DNA of 14,664 nt from a virus. Lineage: Duplodnaviria; Heunggongvirae; Uroviricota; Caudoviricetes. The notes beneath the pieces are model-generated. The model searched no databases. It saw only the letters and a list, made by a program, of their open reading frames with translations, and was not told the origin of the DNA. The DNA lies in IMG/VR virus record IMGVR_UViG_2703718798_000012, positions 1 through 14,664 of that record. One strand, 5' to 3'. Positions 6,090-12,247 of this stretch are shown piece by piece. Each line of letters opens with the position of its first letter. Positions within the stretch are counted from its first letter, which is position 1. The translations under genes and the position numbers were made by a program.

Positions 6090-6162
6090 AGTGACAGCCC
6101 CGGTAGTCAGTTTTTTAGAAAACTCACCACATGGGACGCCAATCACAGAGGTGGTGAGACGT

Positions 6163-6243
6163 ACAGGGTTGGCGTTACCGGAGACTACCGAACCCGGCCC
6201 GACCGAAGTCGGCCCTGTACGCCCCACCATAATTTGGGCGTAG
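6163..6243 (-). promoter_or_regulatory. Conserved structured leader element, copy B, upstream of rha3
   Basis: Shares with copy A the 20-mer ACGCC-N2-AATTATGGTGGG and a 3' AACCCTGT block, and has a perfect hairpin CCGAC-UUCG-GUCGG (6199..6212) at the same offset (10 nt after the 12-mer). Confidence 0.5.
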
Positions 6244-6259
6244 TAATGCTCATGACACG

Positions 6260-6281
6260 AAAAAACCGCATGAGCGCGGTT
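6260..6281 (-). terminator. Terminator-like hairpin plus T-tract inside the rha2-rha3 spacer
   Basis: Minus-strand AACCGC-gctcat-GCGGTT followed by TTTT (6-T run in total), about 25 nt upstream of leader copy B. Confidence 0.4.
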
Positions 6282-6385
6282 ATGCTCAGTAATCAATTTC
6301 AGGACGCCAATCCCGGCACCCGTTTTATAAGGTGCCGGAACAGTGTAACGTCCCGGACTTGCAGAATCAATATGCTGGTGGCGCG

Positions 6386-6748: not shown

Positions 6749-6818
6749 TAAGGCAGCCTCCTGTAACAGTGGAACAGTTCCACCACCGGAGGTCTCAATC
6801 TCGCTGGTGGCGGACTGG

Positions 6819-6900
6819 ACAGGGTTGAGACTACCGGCGTTACAGGAAACCGGCGAACCTTTCGGTTCCCCTGCCCAGCCCACCATAATTCTGGCGTGCA
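6819..6900 (-). promoter_or_regulatory. Conserved structured leader element, copy A, upstream of rha2
   Basis: Same 20-mer and 3' block as copy B; perfect hairpin GAACC-GAAA-GGUUC (6855..6868) at the identical offset. Different stem and loop sequence from copy B with pairing preserved. Confidence 0.5.
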
Positions 6901-6910
6901 AGGACGCTGA

Positions 6911-6934
6911 CAACAAAAAAGACGCTGGCGCGTC
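6911..6934 (-). terminator. Terminator-like hairpin plus T-tract inside the rha1-rha2 spacer
   Basis: Minus-strand GACGC-gcca-GCGTC followed by TTTTTTGTTG, about 20 nt upstream of leader copy A. Confidence 0.4.
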
Positions 6935-7242
6935 ATTTGTCGCCTGTAACAATTCCGGGGTCTCACTCCCGATAGTGGATTTTGCCACTATATGTAAAGT
7001 GTGCCGCCGGAATTTAATTTTGTCAACGAGGTTAAATATAGAGTCGCTATGTTGGTGGCGCTTCGCACTCAACAAAATCACGACGAAACAACCACAGCGG
7101 GATGAAGCATTCATGCGGATAACCATCACGCAGGTAAATAACCCGCTGTGTTTCAGACTCCCAGCGTATAACGTGGACGCGACGCCCCCTTCCATCACGG
7201 AACCAGCGATTGAGTACTTGCATGTGTTACCTGTGAGCATAA

Positions 7243-8235: not shown

Positions 8236-8264
8236 ACTATAGCGATTGATTAAAGCGATTGCAA
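8236..8264 (-). promoter_or_regulatory. PR-like sigma70 promoter for the cro-like operon, with two direct CAATCGCT repeats in the spacer
   Basis: Minus-strand -35 TTGCAA (8264..8259), 17-nt spacer, -10 TATAGT (8241..8236). Spacer contains CAATCGCT twice; the 13-mer CTATAGCGATTGA (8237..8249) recurs at 9152..9164. Confidence 0.5.
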
Positions 8265-8333: not shown

Positions 8334-9038
8334 ATGAGCTTTTCAGACAGGCTACAGTTAGCTATGACTATCCGCGGATACTCGCAGGGAAAACTGGCCA
8401 GAGAGGTTGGCATGGCTCAATCGAGCGTAAATAAACTGGTTAATGGTGCCACAGGCTCCAGGAAAGTTGTGGAGATAGCCAATACCCTGAACGTGCGCCC
8501 CGAGTGGCTATCGTACGGTGTTGGTCCTATGACCCCAGAAGAAAGCACATCCTGCAATCCGACACCACAGGTATCATATTCCCCGCTGGAAAATGATAAG
8601 GATATTTTTCGTGTGGAAGTCCTGGATATCGCTGCCAGCGCGGGACCAGGAACATTCCTTGTTTCAGATTTTGCAGAAACGGTCCATGCTATAGAATTTT
8701 CACATGACGCCGCAAGACGTCTGTTCTGTAGCAGGCCAGCAAATATCATAAAGATGATAACAGTTGATGGCGACAGCATGGCTCCTACTCTGTGTGCAGG
8801 AGATCAGGTGTTTGTCGACGTATCCGTCAGAAATTTTGAAACTGACGGTATCTATATTTTTATTTTTGGGCACACTTTCCATATCAAACGCCTGCAAATG
8901 CAAGGGATGCAACTTGCTGTTATATCAGACAATCCGGCCTACAAGGAATGGTTTATAAGTGAATCAGCTGAAGAACATCTATTCATAATGGGGAAAGTTC
9001 TCATTCATCAGTCAATCCAGTATAACAGGGTCGGATAA
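8334..9038 (+). CDS. CI-like prophage repressor (N-terminal HTH, C-terminal S24/LexA-type autopeptidase)
   Basis: 234 aa from ATG 8334 with AAAAGGAGGA upstream. HTH LAREVGMAQSSVNKLVNG; Ala-Gly cleavage-type site in AASAGPG; peptidase Ser in VDGDSMAPT and Lys in FHIKRL. Implies RecA/SOS-inducible repressor. Confidence 0.85.
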   Translation: MSFSDRLQLAMTIRGYSQGKLAREVGMAQSSVNKLVNGATGSRKVVEIANTLNVRPEWLSYGVGPMTPEESTSCNPTPQVSYSPLENDKDIFRVEVLDIAASAGPGTFLVSDFAETVHAIEFSHDAARRLFCSRPANIIKMITVDGDSMAPTLCAGDQVFVDVSVRNFETDGIYIFIFGHTFHIKRLQMQGMQLAVISDNPAYKEWFISESAEEHLFIMGKVLIHQSIQYNRVG

Positions 9039-9151: not shown

Positions 9152-9189
9152 CTATAGCGATTGACATAACCAAACGCTTTGGCTATTGT
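9152..9189 (+). promoter_or_regulatory. PL-like promoter with operator for the plus-strand accessory/early-left operon
   Basis: -35 TTGACA (9161..9166), 17-nt spacer, -10 TATTGT (9184..9189). Operator 13-mer CTATAGCGATTGA (9152..9164) identical to the PR copy and overlapping the -35; includes the palindrome GCTATAGC. Confidence 0.45.
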
Positions 9190-9214
9190 AAAATTAAAAC
9201 AACAGGAGGCTCAT

Positions 9215-9286
9215 ATGAAGCATGCAGTTAAGGTGATGGATGAAATTCAGCACAAATACAAGAAAGCGGCTCGCTGCTTGGAATGA
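9215..9286 (+). CDS. Leader micro-ORF (23 aa) coupled to the tandem-HTH gene
   Basis: AGGAGG 9204..9209, 5-nt spacer, ATG 9215; encodes MKHAVKVMDEIQHKYKKAARCLE. Its TGA overlaps the ATG of the next gene (ATGA), which has no SD of its own. Confidence 0.3.
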   Translation: MKHAVKVMDEIQHKYKKAARCLE

Positions 9287-9885
9287 TCTATTCCTACATG
9301 TCAGAAAACGGAGCAGAAAGTGAGAGGGTTTATAATGCAATCAGATGCCTGATGCGTTCCCTGCAAAAAACAGAAGAAACTGCATCAATTTTTGCAGAAA
9401 AACTATGTGAGGCAAAAGCTATGGTTTCGCATGGTCACTTTTTTGGAAAAATCCGTGCCCAACGTGAAGCCTGCGGCTTGACGACCACCGAACTTGCCAA
9501 ACTGCTTGATCTCGATGAAGAGATCATCCTGCAATGGGAGAGCGGAGAGTTCGAACCGACCATCAGCATGCTTATCCCCCTGGCAAACGTCATTGGGTGC
9601 GATCCGCTTTCTTTGCTGGATGAAAAAGATAGCGCGTCTGTTATTCGCGTAAATGCGCCTGAAGTCTACGTGGAAAGTATTGGCGCACGCATCAAAAGCG
9701 CACGTAAAAAACTGGGCTTAACGGAAGCTGATCTTGCCCGCATGATTAATACCTATAGCGACCCCATAAACGACTGGGAATGCGGCATCTGTGAAGTTCC
9801 TGCTGATCAGATAGTGCCACTGGCCAGTGCGCTTAATTGTGACCTGATGTGGTTGTTAACGGGAAAATCAGAAGCAAAGGAGTAG
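9283..9885 (+). CDS. Tandem HTH (two XRE-type domains) DNA-binding protein
   Basis: 200 aa. Two canonical HTH_XRE-like segments (GKIRAQREACGLTTTELAKLLDLDEEIILQWESGEFEP and GARIKSARKKLGLTEADLARMINTYSDPINDWECG). First gene of the PL-like operon. Confidence 0.7.
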   Translation: MIYSYMSENGAESERVYNAIRCLMRSLQKTEETASIFAEKLCEAKAMVSHGHFFGKIRAQREACGLTTTELAKLLDLDEEIILQWESGEFEPTISMLIPLANVIGCDPLSLLDEKDSASVIRVNAPEVYVESIGARIKSARKKLGLTEADLARMINTYSDPINDWECGICEVPADQIVPLASALNCDLMWLLTGKSEAKE

Positions 9886-9890
9886 CAACA

Positions 9891-10091
9891 ATGACTGGTA
9901 ATATCCATGATAAGTATGAAGGCTTATGCCTAGCACCAGATTCCTTCGCAAACAATATCCATGATTTATTATGCGCAGTTGTCGTATTACAAATGTCAGA
10001 CAACGACGCAATAAAAAGAACAGGTGATGAAGTTCTTGAATTTGCACGTTGCTATGCTGAAGCAGCAGCTGAAAAAGAACTATCCAGTTAA
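9891..10091 (+). CDS. Hypothetical protein (66 aa)
   Basis: ATG 9891 with AAAGGAG 8 nt upstream (ORF track starts 14 codons earlier at a GTG inside the preceding gene). No recognisable domain. Confidence 0.5.
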   Translation: MTGNIHDKYEGLCLAPDSFANNIHDLLCAVVVLQMSDNDAIKRTGDEVLEFARCYAEAAAEKELSS

Positions 10092-10173
10092 ATAGAACAA
10101 GTCATCTCCAGATACTATATTACGGCTTAATCGCCGGGGATTATCACACACTTAATCCACAGGAGGTTTTATT

Positions 10174-10287
10174 ATGACTTTTATAAAACATAAGGCATCA
10201 CACAAAACAGCCTGCCTTATTGCACAACACGGGAAAAATTACATGCATATTGCCTGCTTGTTTCTGCGTAAAGCATACGGGAGATAA
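10174..10287 (+). CDS. Small ORF (37 aa) with strong SD
   Basis: AGGAGG 10161..10166, 7-nt spacer, ATG 10174; ends TAATAATG abutting the next start. Encodes MTFIKHKASHKTACLIAQHGKNYMHIACLFLRKAYGR. Below the ORF-track size cutoff. Confidence 0.3.
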   Translation: MTFIKHKASHKTACLIAQHGKNYMHIACLFLRKAYGR

Positions 10288-10289
10288 TA

Positions 10290-10472
10290 ATGCATCAGAA
10301 AACAGCAGAACACGAACAAACCAGAGTATTGCTGACCATCAAAAACGGGAAAGTAATATTAATTCGTCATGTTCATGACGATGAATTTGTAGGAAATCTT
10401 TCAACATTCCTGTTTATTGCAGAAAAGGCAGGATATGACGTTATTGCACCAGCAGATGAAGATGAGGAATAA
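10290..10472 (+). CDS. Hypothetical protein (60 aa, acidic C-terminus)
   Basis: GGGAG 6 nt upstream of ATG 10290. No recognisable domain. Confidence 0.5.
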   Translation: MHQKTAEHEQTRVLLTIKNGKVILIRHVHDDEFVGNLSTFLFIAEKAGYDVIAPADEDEE

Positions 10473-10477
10473 ATTTC

Positions 10478-11050
10478 ATGCAATACGCTGAATTCCAGGC
10501 TGAAGCAACAGCCAATGGTATACAAACAGGCAGTATGACTATTGATTATCACGACGCCATACGCCGTCTGGATGCTGGAGAATTCGATACTCCTAATGTG
10601 CGAGGTTTACGTATCCTTCAGTGTCTCGCGCAAGCTGACGAAGCAGGATTACTGGGAAAACTTCCGGTTGAGATGAAGGTTGCCCAGTGGCGATGGTTGT
10701 ATGTGACGACATTCATCAACGAAGAAGAAGACAAGAACGGCACAATTGATGTCCCGAATGAACACGGAACAACAGATCGCGCCGTAATATATAACGGGAA
10801 GCATGGAGTTATGACTATATACCCTAGTCCCATTCGGTTTGCCTTACAGCAGTATATTGAATGGAATTTAATTCAAACATATGGCGAAGCTGAGGGAATG
10901 GGAAGAGCGCTGTTTCTTTATCAGAAAATGCTCACCACTTCCCCTGATAAAGGTTTCATCCTTTCAGATATAGGTCGAGAAGGGCTTGAACTCCTTCTGG
11001 ATGAAATGATTAACGACCTGAATACTCATGGTATGCCAGAAGGCCAGTGA
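10478..11050 (+). CDS. Hypothetical protein (190 aa), orphan
   Basis: GAGGAA 7 nt upstream of ATG 10478. No motif I recognise. Confidence 0.6.
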   Translation: MQYAEFQAEATANGIQTGSMTIDYHDAIRRLDAGEFDTPNVRGLRILQCLAQADEAGLLGKLPVEMKVAQWRWLYVTTFINEEEDKNGTIDVPNEHGTTDRAVIYNGKHGVMTIYPSPIRFALQQYIEWNLIQTYGEAEGMGRALFLYQKMLTTSPDKGFILSDIGREGLELLLDEMINDLNTHGMPEGQ

Positions 11051-11065
11051 CACATTAAATATTAA

Positions 11066-11090
11066 GAAGAATATAACTCTTCCGTTTTTT
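11066..11090 (+). terminator. Weak terminator-like hairpin with T-tract after the 190-aa gene
   Basis: 5-bp AU-rich stem GAAGA / UCUUC with 7-nt loop, then CG and a 6-T run (11085..11090). Confidence 0.3.
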
Positions 11091-11103: not shown

Positions 11104-11211
11104 ATGAAAAGCGACCGTGAATTAAGCAGAGTAAAACTGCTTTTAATCCTTGCCACAGTACTGACACTAACAGAAATCATTATTCTCTTTATTGCGCTGT
11201 CTGTCAGTTAA
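11104..11211 (+). CDS. Small hydrophobic peptide (35 aa, single predicted TM helix)
   Basis: ATG 11104 to TAA 11209..11211 encodes MKSDRELSRVKLLLILATVLTLTEIIILFIALSVS. No clear SD. Confidence 0.3.
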   Translation: MKSDRELSRVKLLLILATVLTLTEIIILFIALSVS

Positions 11212-11234: not shown

Positions 11235-11423
11235 ATGAGACTGTATTTCACAATAGTAATTTTACTGGCAATTATCGCATGCATTTACGGATTACTCGTT
11301 CCGTTCCTTATATCCATGAAGGATACGAGAGCAGTTATTTCTGGCTTTGCACTGGCGTTTCTGACCCCGCCCTGCATTTATGCCATTTACAAGGGTCTTT
11401 CTTTCACTAAGGATAAAAAATGA
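11235..11423 (+). CDS. Small membrane protein (62 aa, two predicted TM helices)
   Basis: Hydrophobic stretches LYFTIVILLAIIACIYGLLVPFLI and AVISGFALAFLTPPCIYAIY. Stop overlaps the next ATG (ATGA). Confidence 0.5.
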   Translation: MRLYFTIVILLAIIACIYGLLVPFLISMKDTRAVISGFALAFLTPPCIYAIYKGLSFTKDKK

Positions 11424-12247
11424 AAAAAATTATTTTTGCTTTAGCCATTGTTCTGCCGACCATTGGTCTTGTCGGTTGCGATCGCGTTGAGCCCGGTAAT
11501 GTTGGCATCAAAGTAAATAAACTGGGCGACGATAAAGGCGTCGGTGAGGTGGTCGGTGTTGGTCGCTACTGGACTGGCTGGAATACTGAAGTTTACATCT
11601 TCCCCACCTTCAAGCAAATGAAGACCTACGATGAACCGTTCAGCTTTCAGATGAGTGACGGCACAACCATCGGCTATCACATCGGTGTGGCCTACAAGGT
11701 TGATCCATCCAAAGTTACTACAGTGTTTCAAACCTACCGCAAAGGCGTGGATGACATTACCGACACTGACCTGCGCCAGAAGATAGCCGACGCACTCAAC
11801 CGACTGGCCAGCAAAATGACCACCGATAAATTTATCGACGGTGGCAAGTCTGAACTGCTGGATTCAGCACTTAAAGATATTCAGGCAGAAATGACACCCA
11901 TCGGCATTCAGGTAATGAGCCTCTCTTATGTCGGTAAACCGGAATACCCGCCAACCGTGATCGACAGCATTAATGCCAAAGTCACAGCGAACCAGAAAAC
12001 CCTGCAACGCGAACAGGAAGTAAAACAGCGCGAAGCGGAAGCCAACATGTTGCGCGCGGAAGCAGCCGGACAGGCTGACGCCATTCGCACAAAAGCCCAG
12101 GCCGAAGCCGATGCTATTCGTTTACGCGGTGAAGCTCTGCGCCAGAACCCCGGTGTTATGGAGCTGGAAGCCATCAATAAATGGAACGGCACACTGCCGC
12201 AATACATGACCAGCGATGCCAATACACCATTTATCCAGGTTAAATAA
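11420..12247 (+). CDS. SPFH/band-7 (prohibitin/HflK-C-like) domain lipoprotein
   Basis: 275 aa, AAGGA 8 nt upstream. N-terminal signal peptide with lipobox LVGC (Cys20). Central domain followed by Ala/Glu-rich coiled-coil tail (EAEANMLRAEAAGQADAIRTKAQAEADAIRLRGEA), the pattern I associate with SPFH proteins; from memory. Confidence 0.75.
   Translation: MKKIIFALAIVLPTIGLVGCDRVEPGNVGIKVNKLGDDKGVGEVVGVGRYWTGWNTEVYIFPTFKQMKTYDEPFSFQMSDGTTIGYHIGVAYKVDPSKVTTVFQTYRKGVDDITDTDLRQKIADALNRLASKMTTDKFIDGGKSELLDSALKDIQAEMTPIGIQVMSLSYVGKPEYPPTVIDSINAKVTANQKTLQREQEVKQREAEANMLRAEAAGQADAIRTKAQAEADAIRLRGEALRQNPGVMELEAINKWNGTLPQYMTSDANTPFIQVK

What the first reader, a model, noticed from the sequence alone, without database searches (positions are those of the whole stretch)
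9891..11050. AT-rich block of orphan genes (66, 37, 60 and 190 aa) between the tandem-HTH regulator and the membrane module
This stretch is visibly more AT-rich than the replication region, has strong SDs and tight spacing, and encodes products I cannot match to any family. Early-left regions of lambdoid prophages are hot spots for host-takeover, anti-defence and exclusion genes, so the 190-aa protein and its small partners are reasonable candidates for an uncharacterised function of that kind.
Basis: inference. Interest (0 to 1): 0.5.

Follow-up and report, generated by a model that had tools for sequence, protein, structure and literature searches.

The report
Early prophage genes; one resembles Cnr
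Four small genes next to the repressor of a Shiga-toxin-type E. coli prophage are real and conserved, and the largest is a distant relative of Cnr, the protein that limits DNA copy number in the satellite phage P4, so it probably regulates replication rather than blocking host defences.

Summary
Four co-oriented ORFs sit at the stated coordinates, at 41% GC against 49% for the window. All four are under purifying selection (dN/dS 0.05-0.23), including the 37-aa ORF that RefSeq does not annotate.

They are not orphans. They correspond to phage P27 genes L08, an unannotated gene, L07 and L06. They keep a fixed order in the early-left operons of enterobacterial and Aeromonas temperate phages.

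Pfam, NCBIfam, PADLOC, PDB sequence searches and fold searches gave nothing. Profile comparison, however, links the 190-aa family (phrog_1515) to P4 Cnr (DUF5375): probability 92.6%, E 4.6e-7. In satellite-like islands the same family lies immediately upstream of, or one to three genes from, an alpha-type primase-helicase gene, as cnr does in P4.

The 66-aa protein is a free-standing copy of the variable N-terminal domain found on the early-left HTH regulators of related phages. In relatives the 60-aa gene overlaps a ParE-like toxin gene, which is absent here.

Most likely the 190-aa protein is an acidic protein-binding regulator of a replication initiator. This function is inferred, not shown. 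An anti-defence role is neither supported nor excluded. Interest is moderate.

The parts
9152..9189 (+). Candidate early-left promoter (TTGACA-17-TATTGT, 9161-9189) overlapped by an operator-like 13-mer, CTATAGCGATTGA (9152-9164). The same 13-mer occurs in the cro/cI intergenic region at 8237-8249.
   Evidence: Promoter scan, 10 of 12 matches; exact 13-nt repeat D3 and related D2 copies. Function is inferred.
9283..9885 (+). Tandem-HTH (2 x HTH_3) regulator, the first gene of the operon. Relative to E. coli UC4224, the window copy has a 1-nt deletion at 9247 that removes the first 26 codons.
   Evidence: Pfam HTH_3 E 2.5e-16, two stretches; phrog_4836/4739; alignment to L001.
9891..10091 (+). 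66-aa acidic protein (pI 4.4), equivalent to P27 L08 and phrog_4587. It is a free-standing homologue of the variable N-terminal helical domain of early-left HTH regulators in related phages.
   Evidence: phrog_4587 E 1.1e-35, and phrog_4836 N-terminal part E 7.9e-5; BLASTP 41% identity, E 6e-8, to residues 18-61 of the phi467 DicA-like regulator; alignment with the regulator N-domains of L002, L005 and L016; dN/dS 0.16-0.20.
10092..10173 (+). 82-nt spacer holding a recombination junction (about 10118). Its predicted RNA fold pairs the AGGAGG of the 37-aa gene.
   Evidence: Megablast module boundary at query position 228; fold -18.8 kcal/mol, z -3.4. Covariation not tested; significance unknown.
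10174..10287 (+). 37-aa basic protein (pI 10.2), unannotated in RefSeq. It is the most conserved gene of the block, with consensus ..AYKTAxLxAxxGxYxxIAxLxLRKAYG[KR]-end.
   Evidence: tblastn hits in 36 phage records, including Fels-1, Cronobacter ENT39118, Aeromonas AsXd-1 and Klebsiella phages; present in 10 of 10 lambdoid loci examined; dN/dS 0.05-0.23 with four synonymous codons at Thr12.
10290..10472 (+). 60-aa acidic protein (pI 5.0), equivalent to P27 L07 and phrog_340. Predicted as three beta strands plus one helix with an acidic tail. In relatives its gene overlaps a ParE-like toxin gene that is absent here.
10478..11050 (+). 190-aa acidic protein (pI 4.6), equivalent to P27 L06 and phrog_1515. 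Residues 63-179 form a Cnr-like core with a beta-sheet insertion (about 89-114), preceded by an N-terminal domain (1-62). A 1-nt deletion near 11043 removes the family's conserved C-terminal ..APVTH.
   Evidence: phrog_1515 E 2.1e-91 and phrog_5991 (= P4 Cnr) E 0.063; profile-profile match to the Cnr family, probability 92.6%, E 4.6e-7, with controls; AlphaFold pLDDT 86.8, pTM 0.84; 3' end alignment; dN/dS 0.15-0.19.

Best explanation
The block is the compact, P27-type version of a conserved set of early genes. They are transcribed from the repressor-controlled leftward promoter of a yecE-integrating, Stx-phage-like lambdoid prophage. All four are real genes.

190-aa protein. It belongs to a family that is distantly homologous to Cnr of satellite phage P4. 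It carries an extra N-terminal domain and a beta-sheet insert. Cnr is a small protein that does not bind DNA itself. It binds the P4 alpha primase/initiator and holds replication down. By analogy, the 190-aa protein is most likely an acidic protein-binding regulator. It would dock on a replication initiator or a similar DNA-binding protein and modulate, probably restrain, replication during early development or the establishment of lysogeny.

66-aa protein. It is a free-standing copy of the variable N-terminal domain found on the first-gene HTH regulators of related phages. It probably modulates such regulators by pairing with that domain.

37-aa and 60-aa proteins. The 37-aa basic protein is a widely conserved core gene with no assignable mechanism. 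The 60-aa protein also has none; in relatives it is gene-overlapped with a ParE-like toxin, which is absent here.

Shown: coding status, conservation, synteny, and remote homology to Cnr and to the regulator N-domain.

Inferred: expression from the leftward promoter, the binding targets, and the direction of any effect on replication.
For: Coding and conservation:
- dN/dS is 0.05-0.23 for all four genes.
- The block is present in 292 of 5426 complete E. coli genomes and 23 phage records at the DNA level.
- The order HTH-66-37-[120]-60-[ParE-like]-[140]-190-[TM-SPFH]-DUF5406-DUF4222 holds across 10 lambdoid loci.

Link to Cnr:
- P4 Cnr against the 190-aa family profile: probability 87.8%, E 3.3e-6, score 36.7. 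The best of 100 shuffled Cnr sequences scored 17.4.
- Profile against profile: probability 91.8-92.6%, E 4.6e-7 to 7.4e-7, over 94-95 columns that cover Cnr residues 6-101.
- Seventeen other window proteins scored at most 1.5% against the same family profile, and the P4 proteins ORF151, epsilon and ORF88 scored below 1%.
- Independent HMMER hints: the window protein hits phrog_5991 (= Cnr) at E 0.063, satellite member P0038 hits it at E 0.0012, and P0121 carries a precomputed weak DUF5375 hit.
- Both families end in ..P-V-x-H.
- Position: in islands L078, L080 and L081 the family gene directly precedes a Zn-ribbon/Toprim/DUF927 primase-helicase gene. In L006, L012, L013 and L082 it lies 1-3 genes upstream. 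P4 has cnr directly upstream of alpha.
- cnr controls P4 plasmid copy number, and its family is present in 90% of P4-like elements between epsilon and alpha (PMC8628076).

Protein character:
- The family is acidic, mostly pI 4.4-5.3. A confident fold has no DNA-binding or enzyme neighbour.

66-aa protein.

Promoter and operator.
Against: - The Cnr relationship is remote, at 18% identity. Pfam's DUF5375 model does not detect it: 1 of 48 members, at E 0.16. The window protein as a single sequence against the shallow Cnr profile is not significant (E 0.21).
- The window has no alpha-type primase. Its replication genes are an HTH_36 initiator, an IstB-like loader and a DnaB helicase. The initiator shows no similarity to P4 alpha. 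The target, if any, is therefore unknown.
- Lambdoid relatives carry different replication modules yet keep the family. This argues against a fixed initiator partner.
- The window allele has lost the conserved C-terminal PVTH through a frameshift and may be impaired.
- The Cnr mechanism (alpha binding) is recalled from the literature (Terzano et al. 1994; Ziegelin et al. 1997). Those papers could not be read here.
- No expression or phenotype data were found.
Confidence: 0.45

Rival explanations
1. One reading: the block encodes uncharacterised host-takeover, anti-defence or superinfection-exclusion proteins. For example, the acidic 190-aa protein could bind and inhibit a host defence or repair protein.
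For: - The block is in an early-left operon and is AT-rich.
- Three of the four proteins are small and acidic, with pI 4.4-5.0.
- The region is mosaic. The 60+190 pair is replaced by other genes in E. coli 2000-3039, and the downstream module is swapped in an ST131 strain.
- No known function was found in any library.
Against: - The families keep a fixed order across phages of Escherichia, Klebsiella, Salmonella, Cronobacter and Aeromonas, and also occur in satellites. This is more typical of element-intrinsic functions than of host-specific counter-defence cargo.
- The best homology lead points to replication control.
- No anti-defence library was available, so this is untested rather than refuted.
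Confidence: 0.2
2. Anti-satellite weapon. The prophage-borne Cnr homologue acts on the alpha-type primase-helicase of parasitic islands (P4-like or PICI-like) in the same cell. It would shut down their replication, as excess Cnr does for P4, and so protect the helper phage.
For: - The same family is used next to primase genes in satellite-like islands.
- The prophage itself has no alpha-type primase.
- Prophage operons and islands share several families (the Cnr-like family, DUF4222, Ash/Rha/AntA), which suggests gene exchange between them.
- From recalled literature, not read here: Cnr overproduction blocks P4 replication.
Against: This is purely inferential. There is no evidence that these islands use P27-like phages as helpers. 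The window allele lacks the conserved C-terminus. A related 120-aa family (phrog_1737) also sits in these operons with no obvious satellite link.
Confidence: 0.1
3. The 60-aa and 190-aa genes form a two-gene toxin-antitoxin-like or abortive-infection/exclusion pair.
For: - The two genes are adjacent, with a 5-nt gap, and move together as one module (window 10118-11050).
- In relatives the 60-aa family gene overlaps a ParE-like toxin gene.
Against: - There are no PADLOC hits.
- The ParE-like gene is absent from the window.
- The 190-aa family occurs without the 60-aa family in L011, L017 and every island examined.
- The 60-aa family occurs without the 190-aa family in L005.
- There is no toxin-like fold or motif.
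Confidence: 0.07
4. Some of the ORFs, especially the 37-aa one, are chance ORFs in a regulatory spacer.
For: RefSeq does not annotate the 37-aa ORF. The upstream spacer has a predicted RNA structure.
Against: dN/dS is 0.05-0.23, with a third-position excess. The peptide is conserved at 47-63% identity in distant phages. A strong AGGAGG precedes it.
Confidence: 0.01

Closest known systems
P4 Cnr (ORF106; Pfam DUF5375 / PF17345; phrog_5991), the copy-number regulator of satellite phage P4
   Same: - Profile-level homology covers almost the whole of Cnr (residues 6-101 against residues 63-179 of the 190-aa protein).
- Both families share a ..P-V-x-H terminus.
- In satellite-like islands the family occupies the cnr position upstream of the primase-helicase gene.
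- The 190-aa family is acidic, and the model of the 190-aa protein has no DNA-binding structural neighbour.
   Different: - 190 aa against 106 aa: there is an extra 62-residue N-terminal domain and a beta-sheet insertion of about 26 residues.
- It falls below every Pfam threshold.
- Here it sits in a lambdoid prophage with an O-like/DnaC-like/DnaB replication module and no alpha primase.
- The window allele lacks the conserved C-terminus.
- Function is untested.
phrog_1737, a 120-aa family of unknown function in the same operons of related phages
   Same: It shares the C-terminal module (two helices, a beta hairpin and a helix; residues 123-184): probability 91.5%, E 8.6e-7. Satellite member P0074 hits phrog_1737 at E 0.008.
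   Different: It is absent from the window, lacks the N-terminal half, and is itself uncharacterised.
Phage P27 early-left genes L08, L07 and L06 (Stx2e phage, integrates in yecE)
   Same: These are orthologues in the same order, at 55%, 53% and 69% amino-acid identity. The same neighbours are present: the L05 SPFH lipoprotein, xis and int.
   Different: P27 annotates L08 as 121 aa, using an upstream start, and does not annotate the 37-aa gene. All are listed as 'unknown'.
N-terminal domain of early-left DicA/'CII-like' HTH regulators (phrog_4836)
   Same: The 66-aa protein aligns with this domain in phi467 and in the L002 and L005 regulators.
   Different: It stands alone and has no HTH. The window's own regulator carries a different N-domain type, with no detectable similarity.
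Lambda early-left accessory genes (cIII, kil, gam, ral, sieB, ea genes)
   Same: Same operon position, and the products are small.
   Different: No sequence or profile similarity to any of them. There are no Exo/Bet/Gam-type domains in the block.

Membership tests
P4 Cnr / DUF5375 (PF17345) | Scores above the Pfam DUF5375 gathering threshold | tested here: not met
   No DUF5375 hit for the window protein at E<=1. Only 1 of 48 family members hits, at E 0.16. P4 Cnr itself scores 210.9 bits.
P4 Cnr / DUF5375 (PF17345) | Homology to Cnr over most of its length by profile comparison | tested here: met
   hhalign A8 against A3: probability 92.6%, E 4.6e-7, 94 columns. The best of 100 shuffles scored 17.4 against 36.7 for the real sequence. 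Decoy proteins scored at most 1.5%. Marginal HMMER hits to phrog_5991.
P4 Cnr / DUF5375 (PF17345) | Single-domain protein of about 106 aa | tested here: not met
   The protein is 190 aa. Residues 1-62 and the strands at 89-114 have no counterpart in Cnr.
P4 Cnr / DUF5375 (PF17345) | Conserved C-terminal ..P-V-x-H end | tested here: not met
   The motif is present in more than 90% of the 190-aa family and in every Cnr sequence aligned. It is lost in the window allele through a 1-nt deletion, so the protein ends ..PEGQ.
P4 Cnr / DUF5375 (PF17345) | Gene lies just upstream of an alpha-type primase-helicase gene | tested here: not met
   Met for family members in islands. Not met in the window, whose replication genes are HTH_36, IstB-like and DnaB types on the other arm.
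P4 Cnr / DUF5375 (PF17345) | Binds the replication initiator and lowers copy number | not testable with these tools
   Needs binding and copy-number experiments. The Cnr mechanism is recalled from the literature; only 'cnr controls copy number' was read here (PMC8628076).
PHROG families 4587, 340 and 1515 (unknown function) | Significant full-length match to the family profile | tested here: met
   E 1.1e-35 (66 aa), 1.8e-21 (60 aa) and 2.1e-91 (190 aa). The 37-aa protein matches no PHROG.
Type II toxin-antitoxin pair (ParE-like toxin with an upstream partner) | A toxin gene adjacent to the small upstream gene | tested here: not met
   A ParE_like (PF24732) gene overlaps the 60-aa family gene in L005, L015 and L016, but no such gene exists in the window.
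Known anti-phage defence systems (PADLOC) | Match to any defence protein model | tested here: not met
   No hit for any of the four proteins at E<=1.
Known anti-defence proteins (Ocr, ArdA, Gam and others) | Sequence or fold similarity to a characterised anti-defence protein | tested here: inconclusive
Lambda-type recombination functions (Exo, Bet/RecT/Erf, Gam) | Pfam domain of a recombinase, exonuclease or Gam | tested here: not met
   No such domain in the block or its neighbours.

The most novel reading that the evidence does not exclude
A temperate helper-type phage carries an enlarged Cnr homologue in order to act on the alpha-type primase-helicases of parasitic satellites in the same cell. 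It would throttle satellite replication as a phage-encoded anti-satellite factor. The free-standing regulator N-domain (66 aa) would similarly act as a decoy against foreign early regulators.
Probability: 0.1. Interest if true: 0.75.

Novelty: new variant of a known kind. Interest (0 to 1): 0.4.

Why it matters
These genes have been listed as 'hypothetical' since phage P27 was sequenced, and they are carried by many Stx-converting prophages. The link between the 190-aa family and Cnr gives it a first testable function: binding a replication initiator and controlling copy number. It also defines a wider Cnr-like superfamily (DUF5375, phrog_1515, phrog_1737) shared by satellites and the lambdoid phages they may exploit.

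If the protein restrains replication, it could affect prophage induction, and through that Shiga toxin gene dosage. If it targets satellite primases, it would be a new kind of phage counter-measure.

The 37-aa gene is a widely conserved small protein that current annotation pipelines miss.

Tried and rejected
Searches that found nothing for the four proteins:
- Pfam, NCBIfam and PADLOC, nothing at or above threshold.
- PDB sequence searches, both single sequences (66-, 60- and 190-aa proteins) and the family profile.
- Foldseek against BFVD: nothing below E 0.07.
- The afdb50 library was unavailable.

Homologue searches:
- Word-indexed searches with the 60-aa and 66-aa proteins returned only near-identical E. 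coli proteins.
- The search for related loci with the family alignments failed because no conserved stretch was found.

Hypotheses tested and rejected or left open:
- Internal duplication within the 190-aa protein: rejected (hhalign E 0.27).
- Homology of the 116-aa and 123-aa island proteins to the family: only a weak shared motif (E 0.006 and 0.095). Left open.
- Similarity of the 66-aa family to the 77-aa protein next to cnr in P4-like elements: rejected (E 0.17).
- Similarity of the 66-aa protein to the window's own regulator N-terminus: not detected.
- A zinc-binding CHHC motif in the 37-aa protein: rejected, because the Cys and His residues are not conserved.
- Similarity of the window's O-like initiator to P4 alpha: none.

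Annotation: the label '2-polyprenylphenol hydrolase/flavodoxin oxidoreductase' on Klebsiella phage homologues has no support in Pfam.

Other:
- Rfam found no RNA family in the block.
- Literature searches found no functional work on these genes or on DUF5375.
- The original Cnr papers were not available to read.
Full report
**Setting**

The window is the left arm and immunity/replication region of a lambdoid prophage integrated at yecE. It is 99.1% identical over the finding to E. coli UC4224 and 97% identical to Stx2a/Stx2d-converting phages. On the + strand the order is:
- a LexA-like CI repressor (8334-9038);
- a tandem-HTH protein (9283-9885);
- the four ORFs of the finding;
- a 62-aa membrane protein and an SPFH lipoprotein (11235-12247);
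- DUF5406, DUF4222, excisionase and integrase.

The other arm, on the - strand, carries:
- a YdaS/Cro-like gene;
- three Rha/Ash antirepressor-like genes;
- an HTH_36 initiator, an IstB-like loader and a DnaB helicase;
- DUF968 and the Q antiterminator.

A good sigma-70 match (TTGACA-17-TATTGT, 9161-9189) lies between cI and the HTH gene. It is overlapped by a 13-mer, CTATAGCGATTGA, that recurs in the cro/cI spacer. The block is therefore most likely part of a repressor-controlled early-left operon. This is an inference.

**Observation**

There are two qualifications. First, an 82-nt gap separates the 66-aa and 37-aa genes. Second, the 190-aa gene is only mildly AT-rich, at 45%.

Comparison with orthologues at 50-90% amino-acid identity gives dN/dS of 0.05-0.23 for every ORF, with a clear third-position excess. 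In the 37-aa ORF all four synonymous Thr codons occur at one site. All four are genes. The 37-aa gene is unannotated in RefSeq. It is nevertheless the best conserved, and it occurs in 36 phage records from five or more genera.

**Not orphans**

The block equals P27 genes L08, an unannotated gene, L07 and L06. Three products match PHROG families of unknown function very strongly.

Across ten lambdoid loci the order is fixed: HTH regulator, 66-aa type, 37 aa, [120 aa], 60 aa, [ParE-like], [140 aa], 190 aa, [membrane + SPFH], DUF5406, DUF4222. The bracketed genes are missing from the compact P27-type version seen in the window.

Megablast shows two modules that travel separately, 9891-10287 and 10118-11050. 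In E. coli 2000-3039 the 60+190 pair is replaced, exactly after the 37-aa stop codon, by the set 120 aa / 60-like / ParE-like / 140 aa.

**The 190-aa protein: negative searches**

**The 190-aa protein: the Cnr link**

Genomic context gave the lead. Outside lambdoid prophages the family sits in int-AlpA-Ash/AntA-...-primase islands. There it lies directly upstream of, or 1-3 genes from, a Zn-ribbon/Toprim/DUF927 or D5_N primase-helicase gene. That is the position of cnr relative to alpha in P4. Testing P4 proteins against the family profile gave these results:
- Cnr scored probability 87.8%, E 3.3e-6. ORF151, epsilon and ORF88 scored below 1%.
- One hundred shuffled Cnr sequences reached a score of at most 17.4, against 36.7 for the real sequence.
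- A profile of 14-49 Cnr homologues raised the match to probability 92-93%, E 5e-7, over 94-95 columns.
- Seventeen other window proteins scored at most 1.5% against the family profile.

Independent HMMER results agree. P4 Cnr is phrog_5991. That family was already the window protein's second PHROG hit (E 0.063) and is hit by the island member P0038 at E 0.0012. P0121 carries a precomputed weak DUF5375 hit.

The alignment maps:
- the first Cnr helix (..LYRRAVA..) onto the family's invariant WRW helix;
- YPHLTLE onto IYPxxER;
- ELEGFYLRQHGEEKG onto IExxxIxxYGExEG;
- LSFLG onto LSxxGRE.

Both families also end in P-V-x-H. Pfam's own model does not see the relationship. The protein should therefore be called Cnr-like, not a DUF5375 member. 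Its last 62 residues are also homologous to the 120-aa family phrog_1737 (probability 91.5%). Together these results define a small Cnr-like superfamily.

The window allele has a 1-nt deletion that replaces ..EAPVTH with ..EGQ. This allele is common in STEC.

**What Cnr does**

cnr controls the copy number of P4 in its plasmid state, and its family is present in 90% of P4-like elements between epsilon and alpha (PMC8628076). From my own recollection of Terzano et al. 1994 and Ziegelin et al. 1997, which were not readable here:
- Cnr does not bind DNA;
- it binds alpha and increases alpha's affinity for ori/crr;
- its overproduction blocks replication;
- resistant alpha mutants map to the C-terminal DNA-binding domain.

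By analogy, the 190-aa protein is most likely a protein-binding regulator of a replication initiator. The weak point is that this prophage has no alpha-type primase and its initiator shows no similarity to alpha. Either the partner differs, or the target lies on another element. The second possibility is the anti-satellite reading.

**The small proteins**

66 aa. It aligns at 41% identity (E 6e-8) with residues 18-61 of the phi467 early-left regulator, and with the N-domains of the L002 and L005 regulators. These regulators share a nearly invariant HTH core but carry at least four unrelated-looking N-domain types. Free-standing genes that resemble types A, B and D sit next to the regulator genes; BLASTP or an alignment supports this for types A and B. 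The window's regulator has a different type, partly lost through a 1-nt deletion at 9247. A modulatory or decoy role through domain pairing is plausible but untested.

37 aa. The protein is basic. Its conserved pattern suggests two short helices ending in LRKAYG[KR]. The Cys and His residues are not conserved.

60 aa. The model shows three strands and a helix at low confidence, with no fold neighbour. In L005, L015 and L016 its gene overlaps a ParE_like (PF24732) gene. That is suggestive of a toxin partner, but the window has no such gene.

**Verdict**

The block is ordinary in being a conserved early-operon gene set. It is of moderate interest because a long-standing 'hypothetical' family now has a testable relationship to a replication regulator. 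An anti-defence role remains possible but has no positive evidence.

Noticed in passing
window 6147-6234, 6259-6335, 6803-6890, 6915-6991 (- strand): There are two tandem copies of a C4 antisense RNA (82 bits each). Each is paired with an isrK-like RNA and a c4 target site. They lie in the leaders or 5' parts of the two Ash/Rha antirepressor-like genes. This looks like a duplicated P1-type c4/ant immunity module.
   Followed up: no
window 9214-9286: Relative to E. coli UC4224, the tandem-HTH regulator gene has a 1-nt deletion at 9247. This cuts off its first 26 codons, leaving a 35-aa upstream ORF and a start at 9283. Its stop codon also differs (TAG at 9883 against CAG).
   Followed up: partly
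window 10088-10176: The spacer before the 37-aa gene folds at -18.8 kcal/mol (z -3.4), with the AGGAGG paired to an upstream UCUCC. This could be translational control. Only four sequences were available, so covariation was not assessed.
   Followed up: partly
window 11066-11090: A weak hairpin (GAAGA/TCTTC) followed by CGTTTTTT lies right after the 190-aa stop codon, at the module boundary. It is too weak for the terminator scan to report.
   Followed up: no
window 11104-11211 and 11235-12247: A 35-aa hydrophobic ORF and a 62-aa membrane protein (phrog_1130, 'moron/host takeover' category) precede an SPFH lipoprotein (phrog_200). The TM62+SPFH pair moves as a unit and sits at different positions in relatives, for example upstream of the 190-aa family in Klebsiella phage L015.
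   Followed up: no
L005 5947-6165; L017 3861-4082; L015 2786-3001; L016 4196-4396: Related phages carry a 72-aa ParE_like (PF24732) toxin-domain gene whose start overlaps the end of the preceding gene. That gene is of the 60-aa family, or of the 120-aa family in AsXd-1, and the overlap gives these proteins a shared ..DTNS/..NTNS tail.
   Followed up: partly
L002, L003, L004, L005, L011, L016, L018, L019 regulators: The early-left HTH regulators have a nearly invariant HTH core but at least four different N-terminal domain types. Free-standing small genes that resemble several of these types sit next to them, which suggests domain shuffling.
   Followed up: partly
P0047 (336 aa); L006 4870-5584: One metagenomic protein looks by eye like a natural fusion of the 190-aa family with the 116-aa family (phrog_37628), which follows it in island L006; hhalign did not confirm the resemblance of its C-terminal part (E 0.12). 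The 116-aa and 123-aa proteins share a weak ..LTxYGxxxW.. C-terminal motif with the family.
   Followed up: partly
L082 (NZ_CP033626.1, Klebsiella pneumoniae 'plasmid', 22.9 kb): This record is a satellite-like element, not a plasmid. Its order is int, AlpA-like, AntA, DUF4222, Icd-like, Cnr-like family, primase-helicase, SSB, PerC. It was deposited as a circular, non-mobilizable plasmid and has a duplicated segment.
   Followed up: no
Klebsiella phage records MN166823, MK422455, MK416019 and others: Homologues of the 190-aa protein are annotated as '2-polyprenylphenol hydrolase related flavodoxin oxidoreductase'. No domain search supports this name.
   Followed up: yes
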